Notes: generated by a model from the letters alone, not told the origin. Shown: positions 1 through 14,986, counted from the first letter of the stretch. The stretch is 64,000 nt of DNA from an uncultured Verrucomicrobia subdivision 3 bacterium (GCA_903850425.1 CAINLR010000183.1:32752-96751); one strand, 5' to 3'. Translations and numbers: made by a program.

Positions 1-976
1 TCTGCCGAACATGACCTATGATTTTGCCCAGGCCATCCTCGACTGGCGCGGCACCAACGGACAAGTTTCGCTCGATTATACTTCACTCGGTTATTTGCCG
101 AAGAACGCGCCGTTTGAAACCGTGGATGAACTGCGGCTCGTCTATGGCGCCGATGTGGGTTTTCTTGCCGGCGAGGATGTGAACCGCAACGGCGTGCTGG
201 ATGCCAGCGAGAAGGATCTGAACGCCAACGGCGAGCTGGACCCCGGCCTGCTGGGCTATGTGACCGTCTATACGCGCGAACCGAATTTTCATTCCGACGG
301 CGGGTCATTGACCAACGTGAACACGATCCGAAATCAGACTGGTTTTTTGACGTTGTTTCAAAACGACGGCGTCAGCAGTCCGTCCTCACGCGCCGAGGCC
401 ATTTTCCTTTACACCCATCCCCGGGGCAACACCACGCCGCAGAACCAGGTGCGCACGTTCACCAGCATCTTGGATTTTGCGGTGCGCTGCCGCAGCGCCG
501 GCATGTCGGCGGATGATTACGCCAAGATTTCCGCCGACGTGACCATCAGCACCAACAGTTATTTCCGCGGCCGGGTGAACATCAACACCGCCAGCGGCGA
601 CGTGCTGACGGCGCTGTTCGAGGGTTTGACCAACGACGAGCAAACCTCGATTGCGGCGACGCAATCGCTGCTCAATTACCGCGAGCAAAATCCCAACAAT
701 CTGGGCTCGATCGTCTGGATCTATGATGCGCTGGGCAACAACAATGCGGTGCTGACCGCGTTGCGGCGGGGCGATTACATTACGACTCGCAGCTTTCAAT
801 TCACCGCCGACATTGCCGCCGTGGGCGCTTACGGTCGCGGCTATCGCCGGGTGAAATTCATTTTCGACATCAGCGACGGCACGCCGAAGATTCTTTATCG
901 CCAGGACTTGAGCCGGCTCGGCTGGGCCATCGGCGAAAAGGCGCGGCAAACCCTGGTCGCGAACAATACGCAATGA
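1..976 (+). CDS. gspK: Type II secretion minor pseudopilin GspK-like protein, 5' partial (frame open to window edge)
   Basis: The frame is open from nt 2, and listed ORF 11-976 lacks an N-terminal prepilin/TM segment. It has the GspK-type helix-hairpin-helix motif GRVNINTASGDVLTALFEGL and an Asp/Asn-rich loop DVNRNGVLDASEKDLNANGELD. Its stop overlaps the next start (ATGA 973-976). Confidence 0.7.
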   Translation, partial: LPNMTYDFAQAILDWRGTNGQVSLDYTSLGYLPKNAPFETVDELRLVYGADVGFLAGEDVNRNGVLDASEKDLNANGELDPGLLGYVTVYTREPNFHSDGGSLTNVNTIRNQTGFLTLFQNDGVSSPSSRAEAIFLYTHPRGNTTPQNQVRTFTSILDFAVRCRSAGMSADDYAKISADVTISTNSYFRGRVNINTASGDVLTALFEGLTNDEQTSIAATQSLLNYREQNPNNLGSIVWIYDALGNNNAVLTALRRGDYITTRSFQFTADIAAVGAYGRGYRRVKFIFDISDGTPKILYRQDLSRLGWAIGEKARQTLVANNTQ

Positions 977-2430
977 AATCCGATTCCAAAATCAAGTCTG
1001 GGAGAACTAAAAAGCTGACCGCGGTGCTGGGGCTCGCGCTCGACGGCGACAAGCTCGACGGCGTGGTGCTCAAACGCATCAACGGCTCACTGCAACTGGC
1101 GCAAAGTTTTTCCGTGGCGCTGACGCTCGATCCGCTGACGGCGGCCCCGGAACTGGTGGGCCGCGAAATCCGCAACCAGTTGGACGCGGCGGGCGTGCGC
1201 GAACGCAACTGCGTGGTGGCCGTGCCGCTGAAATGGGCGCTGACGGCGCGCGCGGAATTGCCGCCGCTGCCGGACGCAGACGCCGCGAGCCTGCTGCAGC
1301 TCGAAGCTGAACGCGGATTTCCGTGCGATCCGGCGACGCTGAGGATTTCCGATTCGCGCAGCCCGTTGGCGGCGGACAAAAAAAATGTCCTGCTCGCGGG
1401 CATCCCGGCGACGCAGCTCGCCACGCTGGAACAAATTTTGGTGGCCGCGAAATTGAAGCCGGCCAGTTTTGGCCTCGGCATTTCGGCGCTGCAATCGCCG
1501 GCGGACACCAAGTCCAGCGGCGTGATCGCCTTCGTGATCGGCGAGAACCAGGTGTCCCTGCAAATCACTGCCGGTGGCGGAGTGGCGGCGCTGCGCGCGT
1601 TTGAAGGCGCGGTGGAAAACGAAAATGGCCGGCGCGCGCTGCACGCGGATCTGGTGGCGCGCGAAACCCGCATCACGCTCGGGCAGTTGCCGGCGGAACT
1701 GCGGGCGGCATTAAAACGCATCCGCATTTTTGGCCCGCGCGAACTGGCCACGCAATTGGCGGACGAGCTGGAATTGCGTTTTGAGCCGCAGGGGTTCACC
1801 GTCGAAGTGGTGGCAGCCTACGCGCCGGATGAATTTGGCGTGACGTTGCCGGTGGGCGCGTCGGTGTCGGCGGCGTTCAGCCTCGCGGCGCGGGCGCTGA
1901 CGGCGCAGCGGCCGGCCTTTGAGTTTCTGCCACCCAAGCCGACGCTGCTGGAATTGTTCGCCAAGCGTTATTCCTCCGGCCGTTTGCGCACTTCCGGCGC
2001 GATTGCGCTGGCAGTGGTGGCGCTGGTGGCCGGCTTGTTCCTGTTCCAGCAATTCCAATTGTGGCGCTTGCATTCGCAATGGTCGAAGATTTCCACGCGC
2101 GTCGGCGAGCTGCAGGCGATTCAAGATCATATCCGGGTCTATCGGCCGTGGTATGACGATACGTTCCGCAGCCTGACAATTTTGCGGCTGGTCACGCTGG
2201 CGTTTCCCGAAGACGGCGTGGTGACGGCGAAGAGCATTGATATCCGGTCGGGGGGCGCGGTGAGCTGCTCCGGCAATGCGCGGGATAACTCGGCGTTGCT
2301 GGCGATGCAGGCCCGGCTGCGCACGATGGCGGGCATCACGGATCTGCATTTCTCGCAGGTGCGCGGCAAGGCACCGATCCAGTTTACATTTGATTTCCAT
2401 TACGGAAACGGAGGCGGCCATGAAAATTAA
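973..2430 (+). CDS. GspL / fused PilM-PilN-like inner-membrane platform protein
   Basis: 485 aa with a GspL topology: about 320 aa soluble N-terminal domain, one TM (GAIALAVVALVAGLFLFQQF), then about 110 aa periplasmic domain. It lies between the gspK-like and GspM/PilO-like genes. The assignment rests on architecture and context, not on a strong motif. Confidence 0.5.
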   Translation: MKSDSKIKSGRTKKLTAVLGLALDGDKLDGVVLKRINGSLQLAQSFSVALTLDPLTAAPELVGREIRNQLDAAGVRERNCVVAVPLKWALTARAELPPLPDADAASLLQLEAERGFPCDPATLRISDSRSPLAADKKNVLLAGIPATQLATLEQILVAAKLKPASFGLGISALQSPADTKSSGVIAFVIGENQVSLQITAGGGVAALRAFEGAVENENGRRALHADLVARETRITLGQLPAELRAALKRIRIFGPRELATQLADELELRFEPQGFTVEVVAAYAPDEFGVTLPVGASVSAAFSLAARALTAQRPAFEFLPPKPTLLELFAKRYSSGRLRTSGAIALAVVALVAGLFLFQQFQLWRLHSQWSKISTRVGELQAIQDHIRVYRPWYDDTFRSLTILRLVTLAFPEDGVVTAKSIDIRSGGAVSCSGNARDNSALLAMQARLRTMAGITDLHFSQVRGKAPIQFTFDFHYGNGGGHEN

Positions 2431-2956
2431 AAACCGGCAGGATTTTCTTTTGGTGCTGACCATCGCCGCGTTCGCGCTGCTGGTCGGCGTGAACTTTGTC
2501 TGGGAGCCGCTGCAAGGCTGGTGGACGGCGCGCGCGGCGCAGGTCCGGGAGCTGCGCGCGAAGGTCAGCGAAGGCAACCAGTTGATCAAGCGGGAATCGG
2601 CCATTCGCAGCCGCTGGGACGGAATGCACGCGAATGCGCTGCCCGCCAACACCTCGCTGGCGGAGCAGCAATTGCTCACGGCCTTCACCACCTGGTCGCG
2701 GTCGAGTGGCGCGGAGATCACGGGCCTCATGCCGCAGTGGAAAAATGATTCGACGAATTACTGGACGCTTGATTGCCGCGTGGAGGCGGCGGGCGATCTC
2801 AGCGCGTTAAGCAAATTTCTTTACAGTGTGGAAAAAGGCCCGACGGCATTGAAGATTGACTCGCTGGAGTTGAGCGGGCGCGATGCCACCGGCCATGAGC
2901 TGACGCTGGCGCTGCAAATCAACGGACTGGCCTTGCTCCAGCCCAATCAAAAATGA
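2420..2956 (+). CDS. GspM / PilO-like bitopic assembly protein
   Basis: Start chosen at ATG 2420 (MKIKNRQDFLLVLTIAAFALLVGVNFV, a short N-terminus plus one TM), overlapping the upstream stop by 11 nt. The listed ORF start at 2276 lies inside the previous gene in another frame. Size and position are typical of GspM/PilO. Confidence 0.5.
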   Translation: MKIKNRQDFLLVLTIAAFALLVGVNFVWEPLQGWWTARAAQVRELRAKVSEGNQLIKRESAIRSRWDGMHANALPANTSLAEQQLLTAFTTWSRSSGAEITGLMPQWKNDSTNYWTLDCRVEAAGDLSALSKFLYSVEKGPTALKIDSLELSGRDATGHELTLALQINGLALLQPNQK

Positions 2957-3585
2957 ACTTCTCACTTACTAAAAAATGGTTCGTGCTCGGGCTCGCCTCG
3001 GCGAACACCTGGCTGGCCGCCGCGCAGTCGAATGAGGCGGCCGCGACGGATTACGCATCGTTCAGCCGGCTCATCGCCGACCGGAATATTTTCGACCCGA
3101 ACCGCTACGCACACTCGGTGCGCACGACGACGCGCAGCACTTACAAGCCCCGCACCCGCTCGACGGCGGCCCCGACTTTCTCCCTGGTCGGCACCATGAG
3201 CTATGAAAAGGGATTGTTTGCATTCTTCAGCGGGAACAGCGCGGAGTATAAAAAAATTCTCGTGCTGAACGAAGGCATCGCCGGCTATACGATGATCGAA
3301 ATTTCCGCGACCCAGGTGACGTTGGAAACGGCGGACAAGAAGCAGTTGGTGGTGCGGGTGGGCGACCTGCTGCGGCAGGAAGGCGGACGATGGGAATTGG
3401 CCGGTGCGGGCGAGGTGCCCACTGAACCGGCGGCCGTGGCCGCCGAACCGGCCCGGACGGGAACGGAAGAAGGGGCCGCTCCCGCAGCGGCGGAACCGGC
3501 CGGCAATCCGGCGGCCGCGAGCAGCGGCGCCGCCAGTGAAATTTTGAAACGACTCATGCAAAAACGAGAACAGGAATCCAAATGA
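2953..3585 (+). CDS. PilP / GspC-like periplasmic protein (secretin-interacting candidate)
   Basis: Signal/anchor MNFSLTKKWFVLGLASANTWLAAAQS. The beta-rich core FSLVGTMSYEKGLFAFFSGNSAEYKKILVLNEGIAGYTMIEISATQVTLE resembles the PilP/GspC HR-domain pattern. It has an Ala/Pro-rich tail and ATGA overlaps at both ends (2953-2956, 3582-3585). Confidence 0.4.
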   Translation: MNFSLTKKWFVLGLASANTWLAAAQSNEAAATDYASFSRLIADRNIFDPNRYAHSVRTTTRSTYKPRTRSTAAPTFSLVGTMSYEKGLFAFFSGNSAEYKKILVLNEGIAGYTMIEISATQVTLETADKKQLVVRVGDLLRQEGGRWELAGAGEVPTEPAAVAAEPARTGTEEGAAPAAAEPAGNPAAASSGAASEILKRLMQKREQESK

Positions 3586-5009
3586 AAACAGCCACCCAAT
3601 ATTTTATCGCGGCAATTTGTTTTGCCGGCCTCCTCGCCACCGCCGTTGCGCAACCGCAGCCCGATAACGGGCCGCAGCCGACGCCACCCTTGCCGCCACC
3701 GGCGGATGCGAGCAACCCGCCGGTCGTCACGCCCGATGCCCCGGACACCCCCGCCGCGCCGGACGCGGTAGCCGCCGCAGTGGCGGCCGTGCTGGCGGCC
3801 CAAGGCGAAACGCCCACGAACAATGCCCCCGGGGGCACGGTTATTTTACCGACCGAGGTGCTCGGCTCCAGCCGGGACGCCGTGAAATCGGAATTCGTGC
3901 CGCCGGTGACGGGCACCAATGTGAACGAGCTGCGGATGAATTTCCGCAACGCGCCGCTGGAAATGGTCCTGAATTATTTGAGCGACGCGGCGGGCTTCAT
4001 CATCGTGCTGGACACGCCGGTGCGCGGCAACGTGAGCGTCATCAGCAGCCATCCCATGACGCAGGCCGAGGCGGTGGACCTGCTGAATTCCGTCCTGAAC
4101 AAAAACGGCTATGCGGCGATCCAGGACGGGCGGACGCTGACGATTGTCAGCAAGGCCGACGCGAAAACGCGCGACATTCCGGTGAAGGTGGACAACGATC
4201 CGAAGAATATTCCGAAGAACGACGTCATCGTCACGCAGATCATTCCCATCCGGTTTGTTGATGCGGAGCAACTGATGAAGGATTTATCGCCGTTCGTTTC
4301 GTCGCAGGCGACGATCGTGGCGAACACCGCGGGCAACTCCATCCTCATCACCGACACGCAGGCGAACATCCGGCATCTGGCGGAAATCATCCGCGCGGTG
4401 GACAACAGCGCCGAGGCCGAGACGGAGATCCGGGTGTTTCCGCTCAAGCACGCCAATCCCACGGACGTGGCGGCCGAGTTGGCCAGCATTTTTCCGAGCA
4501 GCGGTTCCGGCTCCTCAGCGCAAGCCCCGACCCGTTTTAACGGCGGTTCTCGTGGCGGCAGCCCGTTTGGTGGCGGTGGCCCCGGTGGCATGTTTGCCGC
4601 CATGATGGGCGGCGGCAACAACAGCAGCAGCTCCAATGACCGCATCAAGAAGGCGACGCAAGTCACCGCCGTGGCCGACGCGCGCATTCAATCCGTCATC
4701 GTGAGTGCGCCGAAAGATTTGATGGAAGAGATCGCCGGCATGATGAAGGATCTGGACGTGGCTTCAGATCGCGATCAGGGCGTCTATGTGTTTCAGATGA
4801 AGAACGGCGATCCGCAGCAGGCGGTGCAGGTGCTGCAAAGCATGTTCCAGAGCAGCAGTTCTTCGCGCACCAGCACCAGTTCGTCGGATACCAGCGCACT
4901 CCAGACGCGGGTGAAGAACTCGACCACCTCGATGGGCACGACCTCCACCACCGGCATCGGCGGCAGCACCGGCGGTGGTGGCGGCGGCGGCGGCCGGCAG
5001 CAATTCTAA
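3582..5009 (+). CDS. Secretin N-domain protein (N0/N1-N3-like modules only, no pore domain)
   Basis: Signal peptide MKTATQYFIAAICFAGLLATAVA followed by a Pro-rich linker. Repeated alpha/beta modules are typical of GspD N-domains (ELRMNFRNAPLEMVLNYLSDAAGFIIVLD; IIPIRFVDAEQLMKDLSPFV; IRVFPLKHANPTDVAAELASIF; VYVFQMKNGDPQQAVQVLQSMF). It ends in a Ser/Thr/Gly-rich tail ...GGSTGGGGGGGGRQQF. Confidence 0.6.
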   Translation: MKTATQYFIAAICFAGLLATAVAQPQPDNGPQPTPPLPPPADASNPPVVTPDAPDTPAAPDAVAAAVAAVLAAQGETPTNNAPGGTVILPTEVLGSSRDAVKSEFVPPVTGTNVNELRMNFRNAPLEMVLNYLSDAAGFIIVLDTPVRGNVSVISSHPMTQAEAVDLLNSVLNKNGYAAIQDGRTLTIVSKADAKTRDIPVKVDNDPKNIPKNDVIVTQIIPIRFVDAEQLMKDLSPFVSSQATIVANTAGNSILITDTQANIRHLAEIIRAVDNSAEAETEIRVFPLKHANPTDVAAELASIFPSSGSGSSAQAPTRFNGGSRGGSPFGGGGPGGMFAAMMGGGNNSSSSNDRIKKATQVTAVADARIQSVIVSAPKDLMEEIAGMMKDLDVASDRDQGVYVFQMKNGDPQQAVQVLQSMFQSSSSSRTSTSSSDTSALQTRVKNSTTSMGTTSTTGIGGSTGGGGGGGGRQQF

Positions 5010-5027
5010 AACCTGAATAATTTTTCG

Positions 5028-6311
5028 ATGAAAAGGCAAACTATGAAAAACAACTATTTCAAAACCCGGCTCGGCGTTCTGCTGCTACTGTTATGCGCGG
5101 CGGTTCAACTGCCCGCGCAGCAACGTGGCGGCGGCGGCGGCTTTGGTGGCTTTGGCGGTTTCGGCGGTTTTGGCGGCGGCGGCTTTGGCGGCGGCAACCG
5201 CGGGAACAGTTCGACCACGGCGAGCTACAACAACAATGGCACCGTGGGTAGCGCGGTCATTTCCGTGGACCCGGTGACGCACAACATCATGGTCATCGCC
5301 GACAAGGAGACCAGCGAACAGATTCAGAAAGTGATCGAAAGTCTGGATACCGCATTGGCGCAGGTGCTCATCAAGGTCGTGTTCGTGGAAGTGCAGGACA
5401 ACAAGGCCTCCGCCATCGGGGTGCAGGGCAGCTACAACGGGGTCAACAACAACTTCTCTCAGTTGACCGGTTACGCGACCAATTTCGCCGCCGGCAGCGC
5501 CGCCGGCAGCCCCGGCATCGTCAACCCGGTTTATCAGAGTGTGAACGCCGGTAACAGCTTTGGCCTGCCGCAGGCTTTGGCAGGGGCAACGGGGAATGGC
5601 GGTATTTACCAGGTCCTGGGCAGTGACTTCACGGCGACCATCCAAGCCCTCGCCACCGCCGGCAAGGCGCAGGTGCTGTCGCGCCCATCCATTCTCGCGC
5701 GCGATGGCCAGATGGCGGAGATCGTCGTCGGCCAGAGCATTTATCTGCCCAGCGGCGTCACCTACAGCTCGGTTGGCAACAGCGCCGCCACCGTTCCGAG
5801 CATCAATGGCAGCTATCAAAACGTCGGCATCCAACTGGACGTCACGCCGTTCATCGGGGCGAACAGTCTGGTGCAAATGATTCTCCAGCCGCAAATCACT
5901 TCCATTGACAGCTCGACGCCCGGCCAGGTGATTGAAGGTGGCAGTTTGATCTCCTCCGCCGTCTATGCCCCCAACATTAACAAGCGTTCCGCGAATACAG
6001 TGGTCGTGACGCCGGATGGTCAACCGGTCGTCATCGGGGGGCTTATTTCCAGCCAAAAATCCGTCAATGACAGCAAGGTGCCGATTCTGGGTGACATCCC
6101 CCTGTTGGGCCAACTGTTCAAGTTCAGCGCCAAGTCGGCCGAGAAGAGCGAACTGCTGATATTCCTCACGCCCCACATTGTGCATATGCCTGCCCAACTC
6201 CCGGGCTTGACCGGGAAGGAAACCGATCAGGCGCAACTCATCACGAATTCCGTTTCCGAACGGGAACTGGATCGTTTTCTCGAACGCCTGCCAGTGAAGA
6301 AGGCCAAATAA
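5028..6311 (+). CDS. gspD: Secretin pore-domain protein (GspD/PilQ C-terminal domain) with its own signal peptide
   Basis: Signal peptide LGVLLLLLCAAVQLPAQQ, a Gly-Phe repeat, and one N3-like module (VISVDPVTHNIMVIADKETSEQIQKVIESL). The canonical secretin domain follows: VLSRPSILARDGQMAEIVVGQ ... KVPILGDIPLLGQLFKFSAKSAEKSELLIFLTPHIV. Confidence 0.8.
   Translation: MKRQTMKNNYFKTRLGVLLLLLCAAVQLPAQQRGGGGGFGGFGGFGGFGGGGFGGGNRGNSSTTASYNNNGTVGSAVISVDPVTHNIMVIADKETSEQIQKVIESLDTALAQVLIKVVFVEVQDNKASAIGVQGSYNGVNNNFSQLTGYATNFAAGSAAGSPGIVNPVYQSVNAGNSFGLPQALAGATGNGGIYQVLGSDFTATIQALATAGKAQVLSRPSILARDGQMAEIVVGQSIYLPSGVTYSSVGNSAATVPSINGSYQNVGIQLDVTPFIGANSLVQMILQPQITSIDSSTPGQVIEGGSLISSAVYAPNINKRSANTVVVTPDGQPVVIGGLISSQKSVNDSKVPILGDIPLLGQLFKFSAKSAEKSELLIFLTPHIVHMPAQLPGLTGKETDQAQLITNSVSERELDRFLERLPVKKAK
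5127..5195 (+). repeat. In-frame Gly / Gly-Phe coding microsatellite (imperfect 9-nt unit ggc-ttt-ggy)
   Basis: The DNA ggcggcggcggcggctttggtggctttggcggtttcggcggttttggcggcggcggctttggcggcggc encodes GGGGGFGGFGGFGGFGGGGFGGG immediately after the signal peptide of the pore-domain ORF. Confidence 0.85.
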
Positions 6312-6348: not shown

Positions 6349-7959
6349 ATGAAACCTGTCCGCCGAAGCCAGTTGATGTCCACGCTGCTGGTCAGCGCGT
6401 GGCTGGTGGTCGTGGTCTGGCAGGTGGAGGAGCATTTGCGCGTGGTGGAGGCGGCGCGTTCCGACCTGCGCAACCGCGCGCACGAGATCGCCAGCACCTT
6501 GAGCGCGGTCACGCGGGCGCTCCGGTTTCGCGGCGCGATTTTTCAGGAACGTCTCGAACCGGTCCTCAACGAACTCGTCAATAACCGCACCAACGCGCTC
6601 GTCCGAACGGGCGGTCTCAATGCGCTCGGCTTGTTGAACACGGATGGCGATCCCGTCGTCACCGCCGGCAACACCAATCTGCTCGCCCGGGAAATCCTCA
6701 CCCAACGCGAACGCTGGTCGGATCATTACGTCACCTTCGTGCTTCCGGTGGAGGGGGCGAGCGTCAGTCCCGAAGGTGCCACCAATCCCACCGTGGTCAT
6801 TCCGCCGTTCCCGCGCAACCTCACGAATGGTGGCGGGCCGCGTTCCCGCGATTTCCCCCGCCGCGAACCGCGCCCGGGTGAAACCAGCTTGCCCGGCACG
6901 AATGAATTTGCCGCGACGAATTATCCGCCCCCGCCGACCAACGGCGAAGCTGCCAGCGAACTGTCGCCTCCACCGCCGCCGCGTGATGATAACCGTCCGC
7001 CCGACGATCGCCCGCCCGACAGCGGTGACCGCTCGCGAGGTGGCAACCGGCGTCCGCCATGGATGCGCGGCATGTCCGACACCGAATTCAAGGCACTCAT
7101 CGCCAAGCGCGAGCTGCACGGCCTCGTCCTCGCCATGTCCACCGAGAATTACCGTGAACTTTGCCAGCACGACGTCTGGCTGCGCTGCATCATCGCCTTT
7201 TTCGCGGGCATCTCCGCGCTCGGTGCCGGCCTCGCGCTGAGCAACAACGCCCGCACTGCGGAACTTCAGATTCGCCTCGTGCGCGCCAGCGAACTCAATT
7301 CGCACCTCAAGGAATTGAACCTGGCCGCCGCCGGCCTCGCGCACGAGACGCGCAATCCGCTCAACATCATCCGCGGCCTCGCCCAGATGATTTCGCGCCA
7401 GCCCGCCGCACCCGCCGAAATCCGCGACCAGTCCAAGACCATCGTGGACCAGACTGACAAAGTCACCGCACAGCTCACCGAGTTCATTGACTACTCGCGG
7501 CCGCGCGAAGTCCGCCGCACCAATCTCAACCTCACCGCCGCCATCAACGAAGTCGTCCGCACTGTGAACTTTGACGTGGGCGAAAAGAAGCTTCGCGTGG
7601 ACACGCTGGGCGAAACGCTCACGATCCAAGCGGATGAACAACTGCTGCGGCAAGTATTGTTCAACCTGCTCTTCAACGCCATCCAGGCGGCGGACACCGG
7701 CGGGCACATTCAATTCATCGCCAAGCGCACCAGCGCCACCGAAGGCGAGCTGGAAATCCGCGACGACGGCCCCGGCGTGCCGCCTGAGAACCGGCAGGAA
7801 ATTTTCAAGCCCTACTTCACCACGCATCAAAAAGGCACCGGCCTCGGCCTCGCCGTGGTGCAACAGATCATCCTCGCGCACGGCTGGGAGATCGAATGCC
7901 GCGGCAACGAGCCGCGCGGTGCCGTCTTCCGCATCACGCATTTGAAGATTGGCGCGTGA
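6349..7959 (+). CDS. Membrane sensor histidine kinase
   Basis: TM1 is LMSTLLVSAWLVVVVWQV, followed by about 250 aa of extracytoplasmic region with a Pro/Arg-rich stretch, then TM2 CIIAFFAGISALGAGLAL. Kinase motifs are H-box LAHETRNPLNIIRG, N-box LLFNAIQA, and G-boxes RDDGPGVP and GTGLGLAVVQQI. Confidence 0.9.
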   Translation: MKPVRRSQLMSTLLVSAWLVVVVWQVEEHLRVVEAARSDLRNRAHEIASTLSAVTRALRFRGAIFQERLEPVLNELVNNRTNALVRTGGLNALGLLNTDGDPVVTAGNTNLLAREILTQRERWSDHYVTFVLPVEGASVSPEGATNPTVVIPPFPRNLTNGGGPRSRDFPRREPRPGETSLPGTNEFAATNYPPPPTNGEAASELSPPPPPRDDNRPPDDRPPDSGDRSRGGNRRPPWMRGMSDTEFKALIAKRELHGLVLAMSTENYRELCQHDVWLRCIIAFFAGISALGAGLALSNNARTAELQIRLVRASELNSHLKELNLAAAGLAHETRNPLNIIRGLAQMISRQPAAPAEIRDQSKTIVDQTDKVTAQLTEFIDYSRPREVRRTNLNLTAAINEVVRTVNFDVGEKKLRVDTLGETLTIQADEQLLRQVLFNLLFNAIQAADTGGHIQFIAKRTSATEGELEIRDDGPGVPPENRQEIFKPYFTTHQKGTGLGLAVVQQIILAHGWEIECRGNEPRGAVFRITHLKIGA

Positions 7960-8235: not shown

Positions 8236-8582
8236 CAAGCAATGCCAGTCCCCAGCCAATGAATCCCCATCACCGACTGAGGAATTGACCTGCGCCGGAA
8301 AGCAAGCAAGTCACGCAATAAAAAGAGGCGGTTTGGCAAGAAATAAATGACGTATAATAATAAATCAAGCACGTGCAGAAATAAAATTATGCTTGTCCAT
8401 ACGAACGAATAGACGTTGAAGCATAGTGAGACAAGTGATAGTATGAACGTAATACAGTAGAAGAATAGCATTAAGCCGTAACAACATATGGCATAGAATT
8501 ACGAAAATACATTTAACTATTCAAAAACGAAAAAGATCTATTGCAGCGCCCCAATTATCCTCGAAACCCCCTGATTAATCAC

Positions 8583-8912
8583 ATGAACAAGCAAAATGAA
8601 GCACCCAGGAACATGCTCCAGCCCCTGCTACCCAATTTGGATTTGCTGGCCAAGGCGCTGGGTCACCCCGCGCGCTGGCGTATTCTCAAAGAATTGAGCG
8701 GCGGCGAACCGCGCATGGTGCGGGAACTGGCCGTCGTGGCGCGTTGCAGCCCGGACATGACGTCCAAGCATCTGGCCATCCTGCGCAAAGCGGGCGCGGT
8801 GGTGCAAGGTCGCGGACGGCTTTACCAAATTCCGGCGCATCATCTTTCCGCCGCCGGCGAGAACACCGTGGACTTCGGCCACTGCCTGCTGCGCTTGAAC
8901 GTGGCGCAATGA
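8583..8912 (+). CDS. ArsR/SmtB-family winged-helix transcriptional regulator
   Basis: HTH region LAKALGHPARWRILKELSGGEPRMVRELAVVARCSPDMTSKHLAILRKAGAVV. Start placed at the first ATG (8583); the listed ORF begins at a TTG at 8541. No metal-binding CxC motif is obvious. Confidence 0.75.
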   Translation: MNKQNEAPRNMLQPLLPNLDLLAKALGHPARWRILKELSGGEPRMVRELAVVARCSPDMTSKHLAILRKAGAVVQGRGRLYQIPAHHLSAAGENTVDFGHCLLRLNVAQ

Positions 8913-10782: not shown

Positions 10783-11550
10783 TTATTCAAAGCTGGAGGC
10801 CCCGGGAGACTTGGCTTTCAGCCAGGCATCGTAGTCGGCCTGGCTTTGGACGACGATAAAGCCGCCGGCCATGGCCGCATGACCGCCCCCGCAAAGCTGC
10901 GCGCATTCAATCTGGTAACGGCCAATCTTCGTGGGCGTAAAGGTGAACGGAATCCGCAGCCCGGGGATGGCATCCTGCGTCACGCGCATGGCGACGAGTT
11001 TGATGGAATGGATCACGTCCTTGGAACTCAAATAAACCAGCACGGGCCGGTTCACGGGAACGTGGATTTCATTCAGGATTTGAATGTCGTCCTTGCCGGC
11101 GGCATCGGCGGGATCCACGCCGAAGACGTTGTCTGAGGCAATGAGTTTCATGTCCTGTCGGCCGAATTTCCCGTCCAGGCCGGGATAGCGCGCGTTCCAC
11201 GCGAACTGTTGCGCCATGATTTGAATGACCGTGGAATCTTCGGGTTTCGGAAATTGATTCACATTTTTCGCCCACAGCGGCACGGCAACGCCGAGCAGCA
11301 AGACCGCCTCGATGGCGACGATGGCGAATTCGACGCCGGTCGGAACTTTGCTGGTGGATCCCTCGTAGCTGGCGGTTTTATTGCGCGCCACATTGAAGCG
11401 CCAAAGGACGTAGCCGAAGTAAATGATCCAGCCGACGAACAGCGCCAGCATCAGCCAGTGAACATAAACCATGAGGTTATCCACGGCCTGGCCATTGGAC
11501 GAGGCGAGTTCGGGCAGGCCGAGGATTTTATGGGCAAACCAGTCTTTCAT
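10783..11550 (-). CDS. coxB: Cytochrome c oxidase subunit II (CuA cupredoxin, no fused cytochrome c)
   Basis: Two N-terminal TMs, then QFAWNARYPGLDGKFG and CuA ligands in HSIKL ... CAQLCGGGHAAM. No CXXCH motif. The start overlaps the upstream stop (ATGA 11547-11550). Confidence 0.9.
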   Translation of the reverse strand: MKDWFAHKILGLPELASSNGQAVDNLMVYVHWLMLALFVGWIIYFGYVLWRFNVARNKTASYEGSTSKVPTGVEFAIVAIEAVLLLGVAVPLWAKNVNQFPKPEDSTVIQIMAQQFAWNARYPGLDGKFGRQDMKLIASDNVFGVDPADAAGKDDIQILNEIHVPVNRPVLVYLSSKDVIHSIKLVAMRVTQDAIPGLRIPFTFTPTKIGRYQIECAQLCGGGHAAMAGGFIVVQSQADYDAWLKAKSPGASSFE

Positions 11551-11792
11551 ACGTCAGAAGGAATTTTTTCGGCGGCTTGGGCGAGCGCCTCGCTTTTGCG
11601 GATCAGATAAATAAAAAAGGCCAGAAAAGTTCCCAGCACCGGCACGATGATGCCCATGAGCGTGAAGATGCCCCAATTCATGCCCTCGGCCATCGGCGAA
11701 TCAGACGCGCCGTAACAGGTGGCGCAGGCGAATAACTGCGCTGGTGCGAACCCGGCGAGGACGAGCAATGATTTTTTAAGCAGCGGCTTCAC
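11547..11792 (-). CDS. Small membrane protein with CxxC motif (oxidase-operon associated)
   Basis: Proposed GTG start at 11792 overlaps the upstream stop (GTGA). The product is VKPLLKKSLLVLAGFAPAQLFACATCYGASDSPMAEGMNWGIFTLMGIIVPVLGTFLAFFIYLIRK..., with a signal-like N-terminus, a Cys pair and one TM. The start codon is uncertain. Confidence 0.4.
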   Translation of the reverse strand: MKPLLKKSLLVLAGFAPAQLFACATCYGASDSPMAEGMNWGIFTLMGIIVPVLGTFLAFFIYLIRKSEALAQAAEKIPSDV

Positions 11793-11974
11793 AGGTAGCT
11801 GATGCGTTTCAGTTTCTTCAAAAAATAAACGCCGTAGAAGATCACCAAAATTCCGGCCACGATGCCCGCCGCGCCCCAGAACGCGTTGCCCGTCGCAAAG
11901 GCCCACGCGGCGCAGCCGAAGGTCAACGCGGTCAGCAGCGTGACAAAAATCAGATGGAAGGCTTTAAGTGACAT
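11789..11974 (-). CDS. Small two-TM membrane protein (oxidase-operon associated)
   Basis: Internal ATG at 11974 gives 61 aa: MSLKAFHLIFVTLLTALTFGCAAWAFATGNAFWGAAGIVAGILVIFYGVYFLKKLKRISYL. It is tightly packed between the ctaF-like gene (stop 11976) and the next small ORF. Confidence 0.45.
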   Translation of the reverse strand: MSLKAFHLIFVTLLTALTFGCAAWAFATGNAFWGAAGIVAGILVIFYGVYFLKKLKRISYL

Positions 11975-11975
11975 T

Positions 11976-12302
11976 TTAGTGCGTGGCTGTTCCGGGCGGA
12001 AAATCATTCATCGCCGCCATCGTCAAACCGACCAGTCCGATGGCGAAAATCACGGTGAAAATCAGCACGGTGTAAACCAGCTTTTTCTCCGACAACAAGT
12101 GCATGAGATAGCCGGCGACGAGGAAGGCGTTCACGACGGCGATGGCGAGAATCAGCGCTACTTTCAGCGTCCAAGTGTCGCCACCAATATGCGCGAAGGA
12201 CGTGCCGATCATCAGGCCGGTGGTGCATAACACGACGGCGAAGACAACCGCACAGAGGCGAATATAGCTGTTCAAACTAACCGGTTGTTCGGAGTCGCTC
12301 AT
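11976..12302 (-). CDS. ctaF: Cytochrome c oxidase subunit IV (prokaryotic COX4 family)
   Basis: 108 aa with 3 TMs. LILAIAVVNAFLVAGYLMHLLSEKK matches the conserved FMHL-type motif of bacterial subunit IV. It lies directly downstream of subunit III. Confidence 0.7.
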   Translation of the reverse strand: MSDSEQPVSLNSYIRLCAVVFAVVLCTTGLMIGTSFAHIGGDTWTLKVALILAIAVVNAFLVAGYLMHLLSEKKLVYTVLIFTVIFAIGLVGLTMAAMNDFPPGTATH

Positions 12303-12309
12303 AAAATCT

Positions 12310-13113
12310 TCAGGTCAAATAAAGCACAGGGAACAGAAAAATCCAGACCAGATCCACGAAATGCCAGAACAGGCCGGAGACTTCGATGCGGTTGGTGAAG
12401 CGTTCAGGTTCGGTCTGCCACATTTTTCGGCCCGGTCCCCAAAAATAAAAAATGACCAGCGTGCCGCCCAGAATGTGCAGCGCGTGCAGGCCGGTGAGCG
12501 TGAAATAAATCGCGGTGAACGTATTGTGGCGCGGGCCGTAATTTTCCATGTGCTTGATTTCCGACGCAGGAATAATCAGTTCGGCATGGACGGCTTTCTT
12601 GGCCTCTTCACTGCGCAAATCCATCAGTTCCGCGTGCGTTTCCACCTCGTGACCGTGCAAGGTGACGCTGCCAGTTTTTTTGGCGAGGTTGAAGTCGGCC
12701 GATTTCTCCACGAGATGGCCGTCGGCGATTTTGCCGTTGTTCAACTGGATTTCGTAGTGAACCAGCTTGTCGTGATACTCATAGGATTTGATGCCGAGGA
12801 ACGTCAACGCGAGCAGAATGGTGCAGGCGTGGAAAAATTTGAATTTGCCGAACTCGCGCACTTTGCACGAAGCCCACGCGAGCAACGTGGTGATGGCCGA
12901 GAGCGCCAGCAATAGCGTGTTCACGGTGCCGAGCCGGACATCGAGCCAGCCGTGGGGCCAGGTGCCCGTCGGCGCGCCGACACGCAGCAATATGTAGGCG
13001 GAGAAAAGTCCGCCAAACAACATCACTTCCGACGCCAGAAACAGCCAGACGCCCAGCTTGGCGTTGTAAAGGCCGGTATCCGGGCGGTTCTTAATGGTGT
13101 AAGGAATGTCCAT
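12310..13113 (-). CDS. ctaE: Cytochrome c oxidase subunit III (with large hydrophilic loop insertion)
   Basis: Start set at MDIPYTIKNRPDTG (13113); the listed extension to 13305 overlaps ctaD. Motifs are LASEVMLFGGLFSAY, YFTLTGLHALHILGG and GLFWHFVDLVWIFLFPVLY. Confidence 0.85.
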   Translation of the reverse strand: MDIPYTIKNRPDTGLYNAKLGVWLFLASEVMLFGGLFSAYILLRVGAPTGTWPHGWLDVRLGTVNTLLLALSAITTLLAWASCKVREFGKFKFFHACTILLALTFLGIKSYEYHDKLVHYEIQLNNGKIADGHLVEKSADFNLAKKTGSVTLHGHEVETHAELMDLRSEEAKKAVHAELIIPASEIKHMENYGPRHNTFTAIYFTLTGLHALHILGGTLVIFYFWGPGRKMWQTEPERFTNRIEVSGLFWHFVDLVWIFLFPVLYLT

Positions 13114-13123
13114 GGAAAAATAT

Positions 13124-14986
13124 TCAGTGCGCGGTTGTGGGTTTGTCTGCCGGGGCATCTTGCGGTGTGAAATCGGCGGCAGCACCGGGCGCGCTGTATT
13201 CGTAAGGCCCGTGGGCGACGTGCGGTTCGTGGGTAAAATTTCCGTGCGGCGGCGGCGTGGGCGTCTGCCAGTCGAGCGTGGTGGCGCGCCAGGGATTCGT
13301 GCCAACTTTTTCGCCGTGGCTGATACTCCAGAATAAATTGATGATGAAAGGAATTTGCGCGATGCCCAGACAGACTGCCGCCCACAAAATGATGCCGTTC
13401 ATCTGCATCGCCGAGCCGGGCAGCGCGTCAATGGCATTCGGCACGCGCGCGGCGGAGTAATTGACGCCGCCGTCGGACATGCGGCGCAACATGCCTTTGA
13501 TGCCCTGCACAAACATCGGCATGAACACGATGTTCATGAACGCAAACGAACACCAGAAATGCACGCGCCCCCAGAACTCATTCATCTTTCGCCCGGTCAT
13601 TTTGGGATACCAGAAATAGACGCCGGCAAACAGGGCGAAAATGGTTCCCGGCGCCACGACGTAATGGAAGTGTGCGATGATGTAATAAGTGTCGTGCAGA
13701 TACAAATCGCACGCGGCGAGCCCGAGCGGCAATCCGGTCAAACCGCCGATGCCGAACATGGGCAGAAAGCCGAGCGCGAAAAGCATGGGCGTGTTGATGC
13801 GGATGGCCCCGCCCCACAGTGAGAGAAACATGCACGTCAAAATGATCACGGACGGAACGGAAATCATCATCGTGGTTGCCTGGAAGAACGTTGCGATTTT
13901 CTGGCCCATGCCAGTGAGATACATGTGATGCGCCCAGACGATGAATGACAGGAAACCCACAGCCAGCACGGAATAGACGAGCGATTTGTAACCCCAGATC
14001 GGCTTGCGCGTGTTGTTGGCAATGACTTCGCAGACGATGCCCATCGCCGGCAAAATCAAAACGTAAACTTCGGGATGGCCGAGAAACCAGAACAAATGCT
14101 GCCACAAGAGCGGACTGCCGCCGCCGCTGCGATCGGCGAGTTGGCCACCCACGGCGAGGCCGGTCGGCAGGAAGAAACTCGTGCCCGCGAGGTTGTCCAT
14201 CAATTGCAAAACACCGGCGGCTTCGAGCGGCGGAAAGGCGAGCAACAAAATAAAGGCGGTTACGAACTGCGCCCAAACAAACCACGGCAGGCGCATCCAC
14301 GTCATGCCCGGCGCGCGCAGTTGAATGATCGTGGCGATGAAATTCACCGCGCCGAGCAAAGACGAGGTGATGAGCAGCACCATGCCCACGAGCCAGAACG
14401 CCTGGCCATTGGTCGCAATGGTGGTGGCCAGCGGCGAATATGAAGTCCAGCCCGCCTGCGCCGCGCCGCCGGGAATGAAAAAGCTCACCAGCATCACCAC
14501 GCCACCCAGGAAAAACGCGTGAAAACTCGCCATGTTGATGCGGGGAAAGCACATGTCCGGCGCGCCAATCATCAGCGGCACGACGTAATTGCCAAACGCG
14601 GCGAACGCCAGCGGCACCACGCCGAGAAACACCATGATGGTGCCATGCATCGCGCCGAAGGAATTGTAAAGCTCCGGCGAAATCGAGCCGCCCGCCGCCG
14701 GTTGGCCAAGAATTCTTTCCAGAATCGGCCCGAAGACCGGCACCGGCACGCCCGGATGCGCGATCTGCCAGCGCATCAGCAGCATGAGGAAAAATCCGAA
14801 CAACATGAAGCAAAGCGACATGAATCCGTATTGGATGCCGATGACTTTGTGGTCGGTGGAGAAAATATATTTCTGCCAGAAATTCGGCTCGGCATGTTCG
14901 CCGTGGCCGTGGTCATCGTGGCTGGCGTGGCTGTGATCAGCCGCGCCTTCGCGAAACGGTGGAAATTGTTGAACGGTCGTTTCCAT
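13124..14986 (-). CDS. ctaD: Cytochrome c oxidase subunit I (heme-copper oxidase)
   Basis: 620 aa polytopic protein with GAPDMCFPRINMASFH, WAHHMY (CuB histidines) and IIAHFHYVV. It has a His-rich N-terminal tail HSHASHDDHGHGEH. Confidence 0.95.
   Translation of the reverse strand: METTVQQFPPFREGAADHSHASHDDHGHGEHAEPNFWQKYIFSTDHKVIGIQYGFMSLCFMLFGFFLMLLMRWQIAHPGVPVPVFGPILERILGQPAAGGSISPELYNSFGAMHGTIMVFLGVVPLAFAAFGNYVVPLMIGAPDMCFPRINMASFHAFFLGGVVMLVSFFIPGGAAQAGWTSYSPLATTIATNGQAFWLVGMVLLITSSLLGAVNFIATIIQLRAPGMTWMRLPWFVWAQFVTAFILLLAFPPLEAAGVLQLMDNLAGTSFFLPTGLAVGGQLADRSGGGSPLLWQHLFWFLGHPEVYVLILPAMGIVCEVIANNTRKPIWGYKSLVYSVLAVGFLSFIVWAHHMYLTGMGQKIATFFQATTMMISVPSVIILTCMFLSLWGGAIRINTPMLFALGFLPMFGIGGLTGLPLGLAACDLYLHDTYYIIAHFHYVVAPGTIFALFAGVYFWYPKMTGRKMNEFWGRVHFWCSFAFMNIVFMPMFVQGIKGMLRRMSDGGVNYSAARVPNAIDALPGSAMQMNGIILWAAVCLGIAQIPFIINLFWSISHGEKVGTNPWRATTLDWQTPTPPPHGNFTHEPHVAHGPYEYSAPGAAADFTPQDAPADKPTTAH

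What the first reader, a model, noticed from the sequence alone, without database searches (positions are those of the whole stretch)
3582..6311. Secretin split into two adjacent ORFs, each with its own signal peptide
ORF 3582-5009 has a signal peptide, a Pro-rich linker and four or so secretin N-domain-like alpha/beta modules, but it stops before any pore domain. Eighteen nt later, ORF 5028-6311 starts with a second signal peptide (LGVLLLLLCAAVQLPAQQ). It then has one more N3-like module and the canonical secretin pore domain (VLSRPSILARDGQMAEIVVGQ ... KVPILGDIPLLGQLFKFSAKSAEKSELLIFLTPHIV). In the characterised T2SS, T4P and T3SS secretins I know, these parts form one polypeptide. The second signal peptide argues against a simple nonsense mutation or pseudogene. 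It suggests a genuinely two-component outer-membrane channel with a detachable periplasmic vestibule.
Basis: partly seen in the sequence, partly recalled or inferred. Interest (0 to 1): 0.65.

Follow-up and report, generated by a model that had tools for sequence, protein, structure and literature searches.

The report
Two-gene secretin split inside a domain
The outer-membrane channel protein (GspD secretin) of a type II secretion system in a group of Verrucomicrobia is encoded by two adjacent genes, each with its own export signal. The break lies in the middle of a small folded domain, so the two proteins probably have to rebuild that domain together to make a working channel.

Summary
ORF1 (3582-5009) has a signal peptide, N0, N1, N2 and only the first third (beta1-alpha1) of N3. 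ORF2 (5028-6311) has its own signal peptide, a (GGF)n tract, the rest of N3 (beta2-beta3-alpha2) and the secretin pore.

It is not a pseudogene or an assembly error. Independent assemblies reproduce the junction. About 37 species-level genomes of Limisphaerales (Verrucomicrobiota) keep the same two-gene layout, 18 of them with the genes in different frames. More than 100 homologues of each half have the same short lengths. Three split loci only 39-43% identical break at the same place.

The nearest one-piece relatives (Phycisphaerae, Planctomycetota) sit in the same operon order. They carry a low-complexity loop of about 100 aa exactly where the break lies.

Best reading: an old gene fission of GspD inside the N3 loop, with the two exported halves reassembling N3 in the periplasm. 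The fission is shown. The reassembly is inferred.

The rhizobial T3SS "split secretin" is a precedent in name only, because its parts are whole domains of different origin. I found no report of a split GspD. I rate this a new variant of a known kind, of moderate interest.

The parts
11..976 (+). GspK-like minor pseudopilin gene. Its true start may lie upstream of the window.
   Evidence: NCBIfam T2SS_GspK E 2.9e-9 (36.9 bits, below the 130 cut-off). Weak Pfam T2SSK hits. The same position is held by T2SSK genes in L048 and L051.
973..2430 (+). 485-aa protein at the GspL position. No family hit.
   Evidence: No Pfam or NCBIfam hit. Proteins of 469-485 aa without hits occupy the same place in L048 and L051. 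The assignment rests on position only.
2420..2956 (+). GspM/PilO-like protein
   Evidence: NCBIfam T2SS_GspM_XpsM E 4e-10 (39.6 bits, below the 60 cut-off). Pfam T2SSM_b and PilO weak.
2953..3585 (+). 210-aa exported or anchored protein just upstream of ORF1. Candidate GspC/PilP-type partner of the N0 domain.
   Evidence: Conserved upstream of ORF1 in more than 35 loci. A profile of 23 orthologues gives only a weak PilP hit (2y4x, E 0.22). Inconclusive.
3582..3650 (+). ORF1 signal peptide (residues 1-23, ...AVA|QP)
   Evidence: Heuristic; sequence.
3936..4130 (+). ORF1 N0 domain (residues 119-183)
   Evidence: Pfam type_II_gspD_N0, 56.9 bits. Aligns to N0 of GspD structures 5wq7 and 5zdh. AF2 pLDDT above 90.
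4221..4412 (+). ORF1 N1 domain (about residues 214-277)
   Evidence: Aligns to GspD N1 in 5wq7 and 5zdh. AF2 gives a beta-alpha-beta-beta-alpha pattern with pLDDT above 90.
4431..4769 (+). ORF1 N2 domain (residues 284-396), with a Gly-rich insertion of about 55 aa between alpha1 and beta2
   Evidence: Pfam Secretin_N, positions 2-68 of 69. AF2.
4779..4856 (+). N3a: the first third of N3 (beta1-alpha1, residues 400-425, GVYVFQMKNGDPQQAVQVLQSMF)
   Evidence: Pfam positions 2-26. Aligns to the start of N3 in 5wq7. Conservation 0.75, the same as the intact domains. AF2 strand plus helix, pLDDT about 80.
4857..5006 (+). ORF1 Ser/Thr/Gly-rich tail with an SALxxR motif and a terminal aromatic residue
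   Evidence: 119 of 120 homologues have the motif and 117 of 120 end in F or Y. Disordered in AF2. Collinear with the first half of the N3 loop of fused relatives.
5007..5027 (+). TAA stop plus an 18-nt spacer. No promoter-like or terminator-like site.
   Evidence: Confirmed by independent contigs.
5028..5117 (+). ORF2 signal peptide (residues 1-30, ...LPA|QQR). The real start may be the ATG at 5043.
   Evidence: Heuristic passes in 34 of 34 homologues. An AxA|Q site is also present in distant split forms, and the Cys is not conserved there.
5118..5225 (+). ORF2 mature N-terminal (GGF)n / Gly-rich tract ending in YNNNG
   Evidence: 113 of 120 homologues have at least two GGF units and 119 of 120 have YxNNG. 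Collinear with the second half of the N3 loop of fused relatives.
5226..5363 (+). N3b: the rest of N3 (beta2-beta3-alpha2, residues 67-112)
   Evidence: Pfam positions 25-69. AF2 pLDDT about 90. Conservation 0.71.
5646..6182 (+). Secretin pore domain (residues 207-385)
   Evidence: Pfam PF00263, 158 bits. Best PDB sequence matches are XcpQ 5wln (E 8e-36) and GspD 5wq7.
6183..6308 (+). C-terminal helices (S-domain-like; conserved ...SERELDRFLERLP)
   Evidence: AF2 helices at model residues 724-737 and 747-756. Conservation. The function is inferred.

Best explanation
ORF1 and ORF2 together are the GspD secretin of a type II secretion system of a Limisphaerales (Verrucomicrobiota) bacterium.

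An ancestral one-piece gspD had a long disordered loop between alpha1 and beta2 of its N3 domain. That gene underwent fission inside the loop. The upstream piece kept the original signal peptide and N0-N1-N2-N3(beta1-alpha1). The downstream piece gained a start codon and its own Sec signal peptide and kept N3(beta2-beta3-alpha2), the pore domain and the C-terminal helices.

Both are co-transcribed and exported separately. I infer that in the periplasm the two N3 fragments fold together (fragment complementation). That would tie the periplasmic N0-N2 rings of ORF1 to the outer-membrane pore of ORF2, while N0 contacts the inner-membrane platform, as in ordinary GspD.

Shown: the domain content, the position of the break, its age and conservation, and collinearity with fused relatives in the same operon. 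Inferred: separate export, N3 reassembly, stoichiometry, and any benefit of the split.
For: 1. Complementary halves.
- Pfam Secretin_N: ORF1 tail matches positions 2-26, ORF2 N-terminus matches 25-69, and the joined fragments match 2-69 at 41.4 bits, above the cut-off.
- NCBIfam GspD model TIGR02517: ORF1 covers positions 1-300 (190.7 bits) and ORF2 covers 281-596 (224.1 bits). Each is below the 351 cut-off alone, but together they span the whole model.
- ORF1 residues 362-431 align to E. coli GspD 5wq7 residues 206-275, which by that chain's N0-to-pore order I read as the end of N2 and the start of N3.

2. Conservation of the layout.
- ORF1-like lies directly upstream of ORF2-like in every locus that holds the upstream DNA.
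- 37 intact pairs were found, 18 of them in different frames, with gaps of -20 to 37 nt.
- 120 listed homologues of each half are 411-464 aa and 388-500 aa long.
- The half-domains are as conserved as whole domains: N3a 0.75 and N3b 0.71, against 0.72-0.78 for N0-N2.

3. Age.
- Loci L049, L050 and L051 (39-43% identity to ORF2) have a gene with the N domains but no pore domain directly upstream, broken at the same point after N3 beta1-alpha1.
- Complete short forms make one clade in an NJ tree.

4. Ancestral state.
- Fused relatives of 800-860 aa at 37-40% identity are Phycisphaerae GspD.
- They sit in the same gene order, gspE-F-G-...-K-(L)-M-(C)-D.
- Their N3 carries a Gly/Ser-rich loop of about 100 aa that aligns with ORF1 tail plus ORF2 N-terminus.

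5. The junction is real: independent contigs show no differences, and no promoter-like or terminator-like site lies between the genes.

6. AF2 on a virtual fusion with an alignment gives the beta-alpha ... beta-beta-alpha order, with pLDDT about 80 and about 90 for the two N3 pieces and disordered tails between. The best structural match is PulD 6hcg (E 2.7e-26).

7. The new termini carry conserved motifs: terminal F or Y in 117 of 120, SALxxR in 119 of 120, and GGF repeats in 113 of 120.
Against: - No direct evidence that the two proteins bind, or that N3 is rebuilt. The AF2 run was on an artificial single chain whose alignment was partly made of fused homologues. Neither coordinates nor PAE were available, so the N3a-N3b contact could not be checked.
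- No expression data. No RNA runs were found.
- Signal peptides were judged only by a home-made heuristic.
- All relatives are metagenome-assembled genomes. No cultured organism with this layout was identified here.
- The neighbouring GspL-like and GspC-like assignments rest on position alone.
Confidence: 0.72

Rival explanations
1. Two independent partners. ORF2 alone forms a minimal secretin, like short secretins such as phage pIV or MshL. ORF1 is a separate periplasmic ring or adaptor protein that docks reversibly by other means, for example through its conserved tail and terminal aromatic residue, without rebuilding N3.
For: The new termini carry their own conserved motifs, which could be docking elements. 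Other systems build the channel from a secretin plus separate periplasmic proteins. In the rhizobial case, NolW carries only N0 and N1 while the pore protein is a complete Tad-type secretin.
Against: ORF2 starts N3 at beta2 and ORF1 ends it after alpha1. Each fragment matches only its part of the Secretin_N profile, and together they match all of it. Both fragments are conserved as strongly as whole domains, which is hard to explain if they were unfolded leftovers. From general knowledge of this small beta-alpha-beta-beta-alpha fold, neither piece should fold alone.
Confidence: 0.2
2. One polypeptide is still made, by stop-codon read-through or recoding at the junction, so the split is only apparent.
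For: In this window the two ORFs are in the same frame with a single TAA and six sense codons between them.
Against: In 18 of 37 related genomes the two genes are in different frames, and gaps range from -20 to 37 nt. A conserved signal peptide sits at the start of ORF2 in all relatives, and it would become an internal hydrophobic segment in a read-through product. ORF1's terminal F/Y is conserved in 117 of 120, which implies a free C-terminus.
Confidence: 0.02
3. Pseudogene or assembly artefact: a nonsense mutation or indel in a normal gspD.
For: None beyond the bare fact of a stop codon inside what is elsewhere one gene.
Against: Three independent metagenome assemblies give the identical junction. 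An identical 475-aa ORF1 is on record elsewhere (P0121). The layout is conserved across dozens of species and down to about 40% identity. There is no decay in either half.
Confidence: 0.01

Closest known systems
[quoted passage not shown] PDB 5wq7, 5wln, 6hcg)
   Same: Same domain order when the two ORFs are read in series: N0-N1-N2-N3-secretin-C-terminal helices. The best sequence and fold matches are GspD structures. The best NCBIfam model is GspD. The genes lie at the end of a gsp-like operon.
   Different: It is encoded by two genes with two signal peptides, and the break lies inside N3. Neither protein alone reaches the GspD model cut-off. The N2 and N3 domains carry very long Gly/Ser/Thr-rich insertions.
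Fused GspD of Phycisphaerae (Planctomycetota), e.g. P0307 in locus L048 and the Humisphaera borealis homologue
   Same: These are the closest one-piece relatives, 37-40% identical to ORF2. They have the same operon order and are collinear over the whole length, including a low-complexity loop of about 100 aa in N3.
   Different: A single 800-860-aa polypeptide. The loop is closed, with no internal signal peptide.
Rhizobial Rhc T3SS 'split secretin' RhcC1 (NolW) / RhcC2
   Same: It is described in the literature as a secretin encoded by two ORFs, with unknown functional significance (PMC3574062, PMC3973906). Its N-terminal part also carries only N-domains.
   Different: On pNGR234a, NolW (234 aa) is T3S N0 plus one Secretin_N. 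RhcC2 (475 aa) is T2SS-T3SS_pil_N + BON + Secretin, a Tad/RcpA-like architecture, next to a CpaD-family gene. Its parts are therefore whole domains, apparently of different origin, about 11.6 kb apart on opposite strands. It belongs to a T3SS, not a T2SS. It is not a break inside a domain.
Tad pilus RcpA secretin with separate periplasmic partners (PDB 8odn RcpA-TadD)
   Same: A short secretin of about 420-460 aa, with the rest of the envelope-spanning conduit supplied by other proteins. ORF2 matches RcpA at E 1.5e-22.
   Different: The partners of RcpA are not homologous to GspD N-domains. This statement rests on my own knowledge and was not tested here. No shared, split domain is involved.

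Membership tests
Secretin superfamily (Pfam PF00263) | C-terminal secretin pore domain above the gathering score | tested here: met
   ORF2: 158 bits against a 27.5 cut-off, residues 207-385. ORF1: no hit.
Secretin superfamily | Periplasmic N-domains (N0 plus ring-building Secretin_N repeats) on the same polypeptide as the pore | tested here: not met
   N0, N1, N2 and N3a are on ORF1. Only N3b is on ORF2.
T2SS secretin GspD (NCBIfam TIGR02517, equivalog) | Whole-protein score at or above 351.35 bits | tested here: not met
   ORF1 scores 190.7 bits (model positions 1-300) and ORF2 scores 224.1 bits (positions 281-596). Each is below the cut-off. As a pair they cover the whole model.
T2SS secretin GspD | Encoded in a gsp operon with GspE/F/G, minor pseudopilins and GspK/L/M | tested here: inconclusive
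   The window holds only weak GspK and GspM hits because it starts inside the operon. The split locus L051 has T2SSJ and T2SSK upstream. The fused relative L048 has the full E-F-G-J-K set.
T2SS secretin GspD | Forms an SDS-resistant multimer of about 15 subunits in the outer membrane and secretes folded proteins | not testable with these tools
   Needs biochemistry or cryo-EM.
Type IV pilus secretin PilQ (TIGR02515) | Score at or above 284 bits, with AMIN domains and pilMNOP neighbours | tested here: not met
   ORF2 scores 151.9 bits and ORF1 44.5 bits. No AMIN hit. GspD scores higher.
Rhc-type split T3SS secretin (RhcC1/RhcC2) | T3S-type N0 on the first part, and a T2SS-T3SS_pil_N + BON + Secretin second part, within a T3SS cluster | tested here: not met
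   ORF1 has a GspD-type N0. ORF2 lacks pil_N and BON, unlike the pNGR234a proteins.
Lipoprotein secretins (self-piloting, e.g. HxcQ/BfpB type) | Lipobox with an invariant Cys at the cleavage site | tested here: not met
   The Cys in the ORF2 signal peptide is preceded by L, F or W, and it is absent from the hydrophobic core in several distant split forms (for example P0266, P0267, P0308). An AxA|Q site is conserved instead.

The most novel reading that the evidence does not exclude
The split is adaptive because it opens a closed loop of about 100 residues per subunit into two free tails, roughly 15 copies of each if the ring is GspD-like. One tail is Ser/Thr-rich and ends in a conserved aromatic residue. 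The other is a conserved (GGF)n tract. The free tails could act as a disordered, FG-like plug or gate at the N3 level, which a substrate or pseudopilus can push aside more easily than closed loops. Alternatively, they could let the periplasmic vestibule and the outer-membrane pore be assembled on opposite sides of the cell wall and then zipped together through N3. That would give a secretin whose two halves dock in a regulated way.
Probability: 0.12. Interest if true: 0.8.

Novelty: new variant of a known kind. Interest (0 to 1): 0.58.

Why it matters
Secretins are the shared outer-membrane gates of type II and III secretion, type IV pili and filamentous phage export. They are studied as single giant polypeptides that must cross the periplasm and the cell wall to assemble.

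Here a whole bacterial lineage makes GspD from two separately exported chains cut inside the N3 ring domain. This offers:
- a ready-made system for asking how the periplasmic rings and the pore find each other;
- a test of whether N3 can fold from two chains;
- a handle on what the very long disordered loops of PVC-group secretins do;
- a route to learning how secretins pass the peptidoglycan.

It also matters for annotation. Neither half reaches the GspD model threshold, so automatic pipelines name them generically and may score the T2SS of these abundant soil and freshwater Verrucomicrobia as lacking its secretin.

Tried and rejected
- AF2 on the virtual fusion without an alignment gave pLDDT 33 and was useless.
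The alignment actually used mixed fused homologues with unpaired halves, so it cannot give independent co-evolution evidence across the break.
- The Foldseek output gives no residue ranges, and TM-scores are low (0.2-0.36) because a monomer model was compared with protomers from rings. It confirms the GspD fold class but not N3 assembly.
- The search for RNA runs found none.
- A profile of the 210-aa upstream protein against PDB sequences gave only E 0.2 to PilP.
- 'Joints' that skip 135 or 177 nt have 21-24-nt anchors in GGC repeats. I take them as cross-matches of other Gly-rich genes.
- The Akkermansia PilQ (Amuc_1098) literature was checked. It is a different, one-piece, TPR-bearing secretin (NCBIfam Amuc_1098_fam only 73 bits).
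- Taxonomy of the most distant split loci (L049-L051) could not be established.
Full report
**1. What is there**

ORF1 (3582-5009, 475 aa) and ORF2 (5028-6311, 427 aa) lie on the + strand. They are separated by TAA and 18 nt.

Upstream, with overlapping stops and starts, are four genes:
- a GspK-like gene (11-976);
- a 485-aa gene with no family hit (973-2430);
- a GspM/PilO-like gene (2420-2956);
- a 210-aa gene (2953-3585).

A histidine kinase follows at 6349-7959.

Pfam finds a GspD-type N0 (residues 119-183) and Secretin_N repeats in ORF1, but no pore domain. In ORF2 it finds the Secretin pore (207-385, 158 bits) and a sub-threshold Secretin_N hit limited to profile positions 25-69. No promoter-like or terminator-like site lies between the two ORFs.

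**2. Where exactly the break is**

The end of ORF1 (DQGVYVFQMKNGDPQQAVQVLQSMF) looks like the first strand and helix of a ring-building N-domain. The start of mature ORF2 (GSAVISVDPVTHNIMVIADKETSEQIQKVIESLD) looks like the last two strands and helix.

I tested this with Pfam:

| Sequence | Bits | Secretin_N positions matched |
|---|---|---|
| ORF1 fragment alone | 17.2 | 2-26 |
| ORF2 fragment alone | 22.4 | 25-69 |
| Both joined, low-complexity linker removed | 41.4 | 2-69 of 69 |

The cut-off is 28.2 bits, so only the joined sequence passes.

Against solved structures, ORF1 residues 362-431 align with E. coli GspD 5wq7 residues 206-275. By that chain's N0-to-pore order I read this as the end of N2 and the start of N3. 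ORF2 from about residue 56-76 aligns with the rest of N3 and the pore of XcpQ and GspD.

The NCBIfam GspD equivalog model (600 positions, cut-off 351 bits) is matched at positions 1-300 by ORF1 (190.7 bits) and at 281-596 by ORF2 (224.1 bits). The gene is therefore cut inside N3, in the alpha1-beta2 loop, not between modules.

**3. Artefact or pseudogene?**

- Contigs of three lake-water metagenome runs cover the junction with zero differences.
- An identical ORF1 product is on record from other assemblies (P0121).
- The 120 best homologues of ORF2 (67-81% identity) are all 411-464 aa. Those of ORF1 (59-100% identity) are 388-500 aa.
- A scan of one genome per species returned 46 related loci. 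By their titles these are mostly Verrucomicrobiae, subdivision 3 or Limisphaerales metagenome-assembled genomes.
- In every locus that includes the upstream DNA, an ORF1 homologue lies directly before the ORF2 homologue.
- In 37 loci with intact reading frames, the two genes are in different frames in 18, and the gap ranges from -20 to 37 nt.
- Five loci show frameshifts in both genes. I take these as assembly indels.
- Per-region conservation across 36-40 homologues: N0 0.78, N1 0.74, N2 0.72-0.75, N3a 0.75, N3b 0.71, pore 0.81. The half-domains are under the same constraint as whole domains.

**4. How old, and what came before**

A search of 50%-identity representatives shows complete short forms (about 400-480 aa, with their own N-terminus) down to 39% identity. 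One-piece forms of 800-860 aa appear at 37-40% identity.

Three of the distant short forms were looked up. Each has a gene with N0 and Secretin_N but no pore domain immediately upstream (664, 542 and 414 aa). Each of those genes ends just after an N3 beta1-alpha1 and a Ser/Thr-rich tail.

In a neighbour-joining tree of the pore cores, the complete short forms make one clade and the long forms another. The few short sequences that fall among the long forms lack a normal N-terminus and look like fragments. The tree has no bootstrap support values.

The one-piece relatives are GspD of Phycisphaerae, including Tepidisphaeraceae and Humisphaera borealis. One of them (L048) sits in the order gspE, F, G, pseudopilins, K, a 469-aa gene, an M-like gene, a 201-aa gene, then the 826-aa secretin. 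This matches the order in the window.

Aligning split pairs with fused proteins shows full collinearity. The fused N3 carries a Gly/Ser/Thr-rich loop of about 100 residues between alpha1 and beta2. The ORF1 tail plus the ORF2 mature N-terminus occupy that loop.

The simplest history is a single old fission inside this loop, with a start codon and a signal peptide evolving in the second half.

**5. The new ends**

ORF2-like proteins pass a simple signal-peptide test in 34 of 34 cases, and ORF1-like proteins in 35 of 38. Distant split forms also have AxA|Q-type sites, and the Cys in the hydrophobic core is not conserved among them. This argues against a lipoprotein.

The ends created by the split are not random:
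- 117 of 120 ORF1-like proteins end in F or Y;
- 119 of 120 have an S(A/L/P)LxxR motif in the tail;
- 113 of 120 ORF2-like proteins begin with at least two GGF units;
- 119 of 120 have YxNNG just before beta2.

**6. Structure prediction**

A single-sequence AF2 run failed (pLDDT 33).

The second run used a virtual fusion (ORF1 110-475 plus ORF2 31-427). Its alignment was made of fused homologues and unpaired halves. Results:
- mean pLDDT 68.9;
- N0 and N1 above 90;
- N3a as a strand plus a helix at about 80;
- the tails disordered;
- N3b as two strands plus a helix at about 90;
- the pore at 76-92.

Foldseek puts PulD 6hcg first (E 2.7e-26), followed by other GspD structures.

The tool gives no coordinates or PAE, so I could not verify that N3a packs on N3b. 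This step remains an inference. It rests on the complementary profile matches, on the equal conservation of the two fragments, and on the established beta-alpha-beta-beta-alpha fold of this domain, in which neither piece should be stable alone.

**7. Mechanism proposed**

The two genes are co-transcribed and both products are exported by Sec. ORF2 forms the outer-membrane multimer. ORF1 forms the N0-N2 periplasmic rings and is joined to ORF2 by rebuilding N3 from two chains. N0 contacts the inner-membrane platform, perhaps through the 210-aa upstream protein, whose resemblance to PilP is only weak (E 0.2).

Rivals:
- independent partners without N3 reassembly (0.2);
- read-through (0.02), contradicted by the different frames and the conserved free ends;
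- pseudogene or artefact (0.01).

**8. Comparison with what is known**

Literature searches for a split secretin returned only the rhizobial Rhc T3SS. There the secretin is said to be split into RhcC1 (NolW) and RhcC2, with unknown significance (PMC3574062, PMC3973906).

I examined that case on pNGR234a:
- NolW (234 aa) is T3S N0 plus one Secretin_N.
- RhcC2 (475 aa) is T2SS-T3SS_pil_N + BON + Secretin, next to a CpaD-family gene. This is a complete Tad-type secretin.
- The two genes lie about 11.6 kb apart on opposite strands.

It is therefore a two-protein channel built from whole domains, not a break inside a domain.

The Akkermansia PilQ is a different, one-piece secretin.

I found no description of a split GspD. 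Databases simply name the halves "secretin N-terminal domain-containing protein" and "general secretion pathway protein D".

**9. Verdict**

It is a genuine two-chain secretin. The cut runs through a domain, which argues for a tight junction rather than a loose, detachable vestibule. It is a new variant of a known kind, of moderate interest (0.58). The interest would be higher if the free tails or the two-step assembly prove functional.

Noticed in passing
window 4857-5006 and 5118-5225: The protein ends created by the split carry conserved motifs. The ORF1 tail has SALxxR (119 of 120) and a terminal F or Y (117 of 120). Mature ORF2 starts with (GGF)n (113 of 120) and YxNNG (119 of 120). Their function is unknown.
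   Followed up: partly
window 5007-5027: In this genome the two ORFs are in the same frame, with a single TAA and six codons between them. In 18 of 37 relatives the frames differ, so the shared frame here is incidental.
   Followed up: yes
window 6349-7959; L050 5038-5988: A histidine kinase gene directly follows the pore gene in the window. A HisKA gene also follows it in a distant split locus. This could be a conserved regulatory neighbour.
   Followed up: no
window 4497-4655 (ORF1 residues 306-358): N2 also carries a Gly-rich insertion of about 55 aa at the same alpha1-beta2 position as the N3 loop. Fused Phycisphaerae relatives have even longer Gly/Phe-rich insertions, and some homologues reach 1,000-1,350 aa.
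   Followed up: no
L009, L018, L038, L045, L046: The hits in these loci are broken across frames in one or both of the two secretin genes. I suspect assembly indels rather than decay.
   Followed up: no
L025, L026, L028, L032, L039, L044 (record titles): Public records that carry this Verrucomicrobia-type locus are titled Bifidobacteriaceae, Candidatus Acidoferrum or Aquilonibacter. The taxonomic labels look wrong.
   Followed up: no
L055 17373-18077 and 29670-31097 (pNGR234a): The rhizobial 'split secretin' consists of an N0+N1 protein (NolW) and a complete Tad/RcpA-type secretin (pil_N + BON + Secretin) beside a CpaD-family gene. It is not two halves of one broken gene.
   Followed up: yes
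window 10783-14986 (- strand) and 8541-8912 (+): By eye, the - strand carries a cytochrome c oxidase subunit cluster (a 620-aa subunit I-like ORF and a 255-aa subunit II-like ORF). The + strand carries a small ArsR-like HTH protein. Neither was checked with tools.
   Followed up: no
window 973-2430 and 2953-3585: Two conserved operon genes, at the GspL and GspC/PilP positions, have no Pfam or NCBIfam hit. They may be divergent PVC-specific versions of these T2SS parts.
   Followed up: partly
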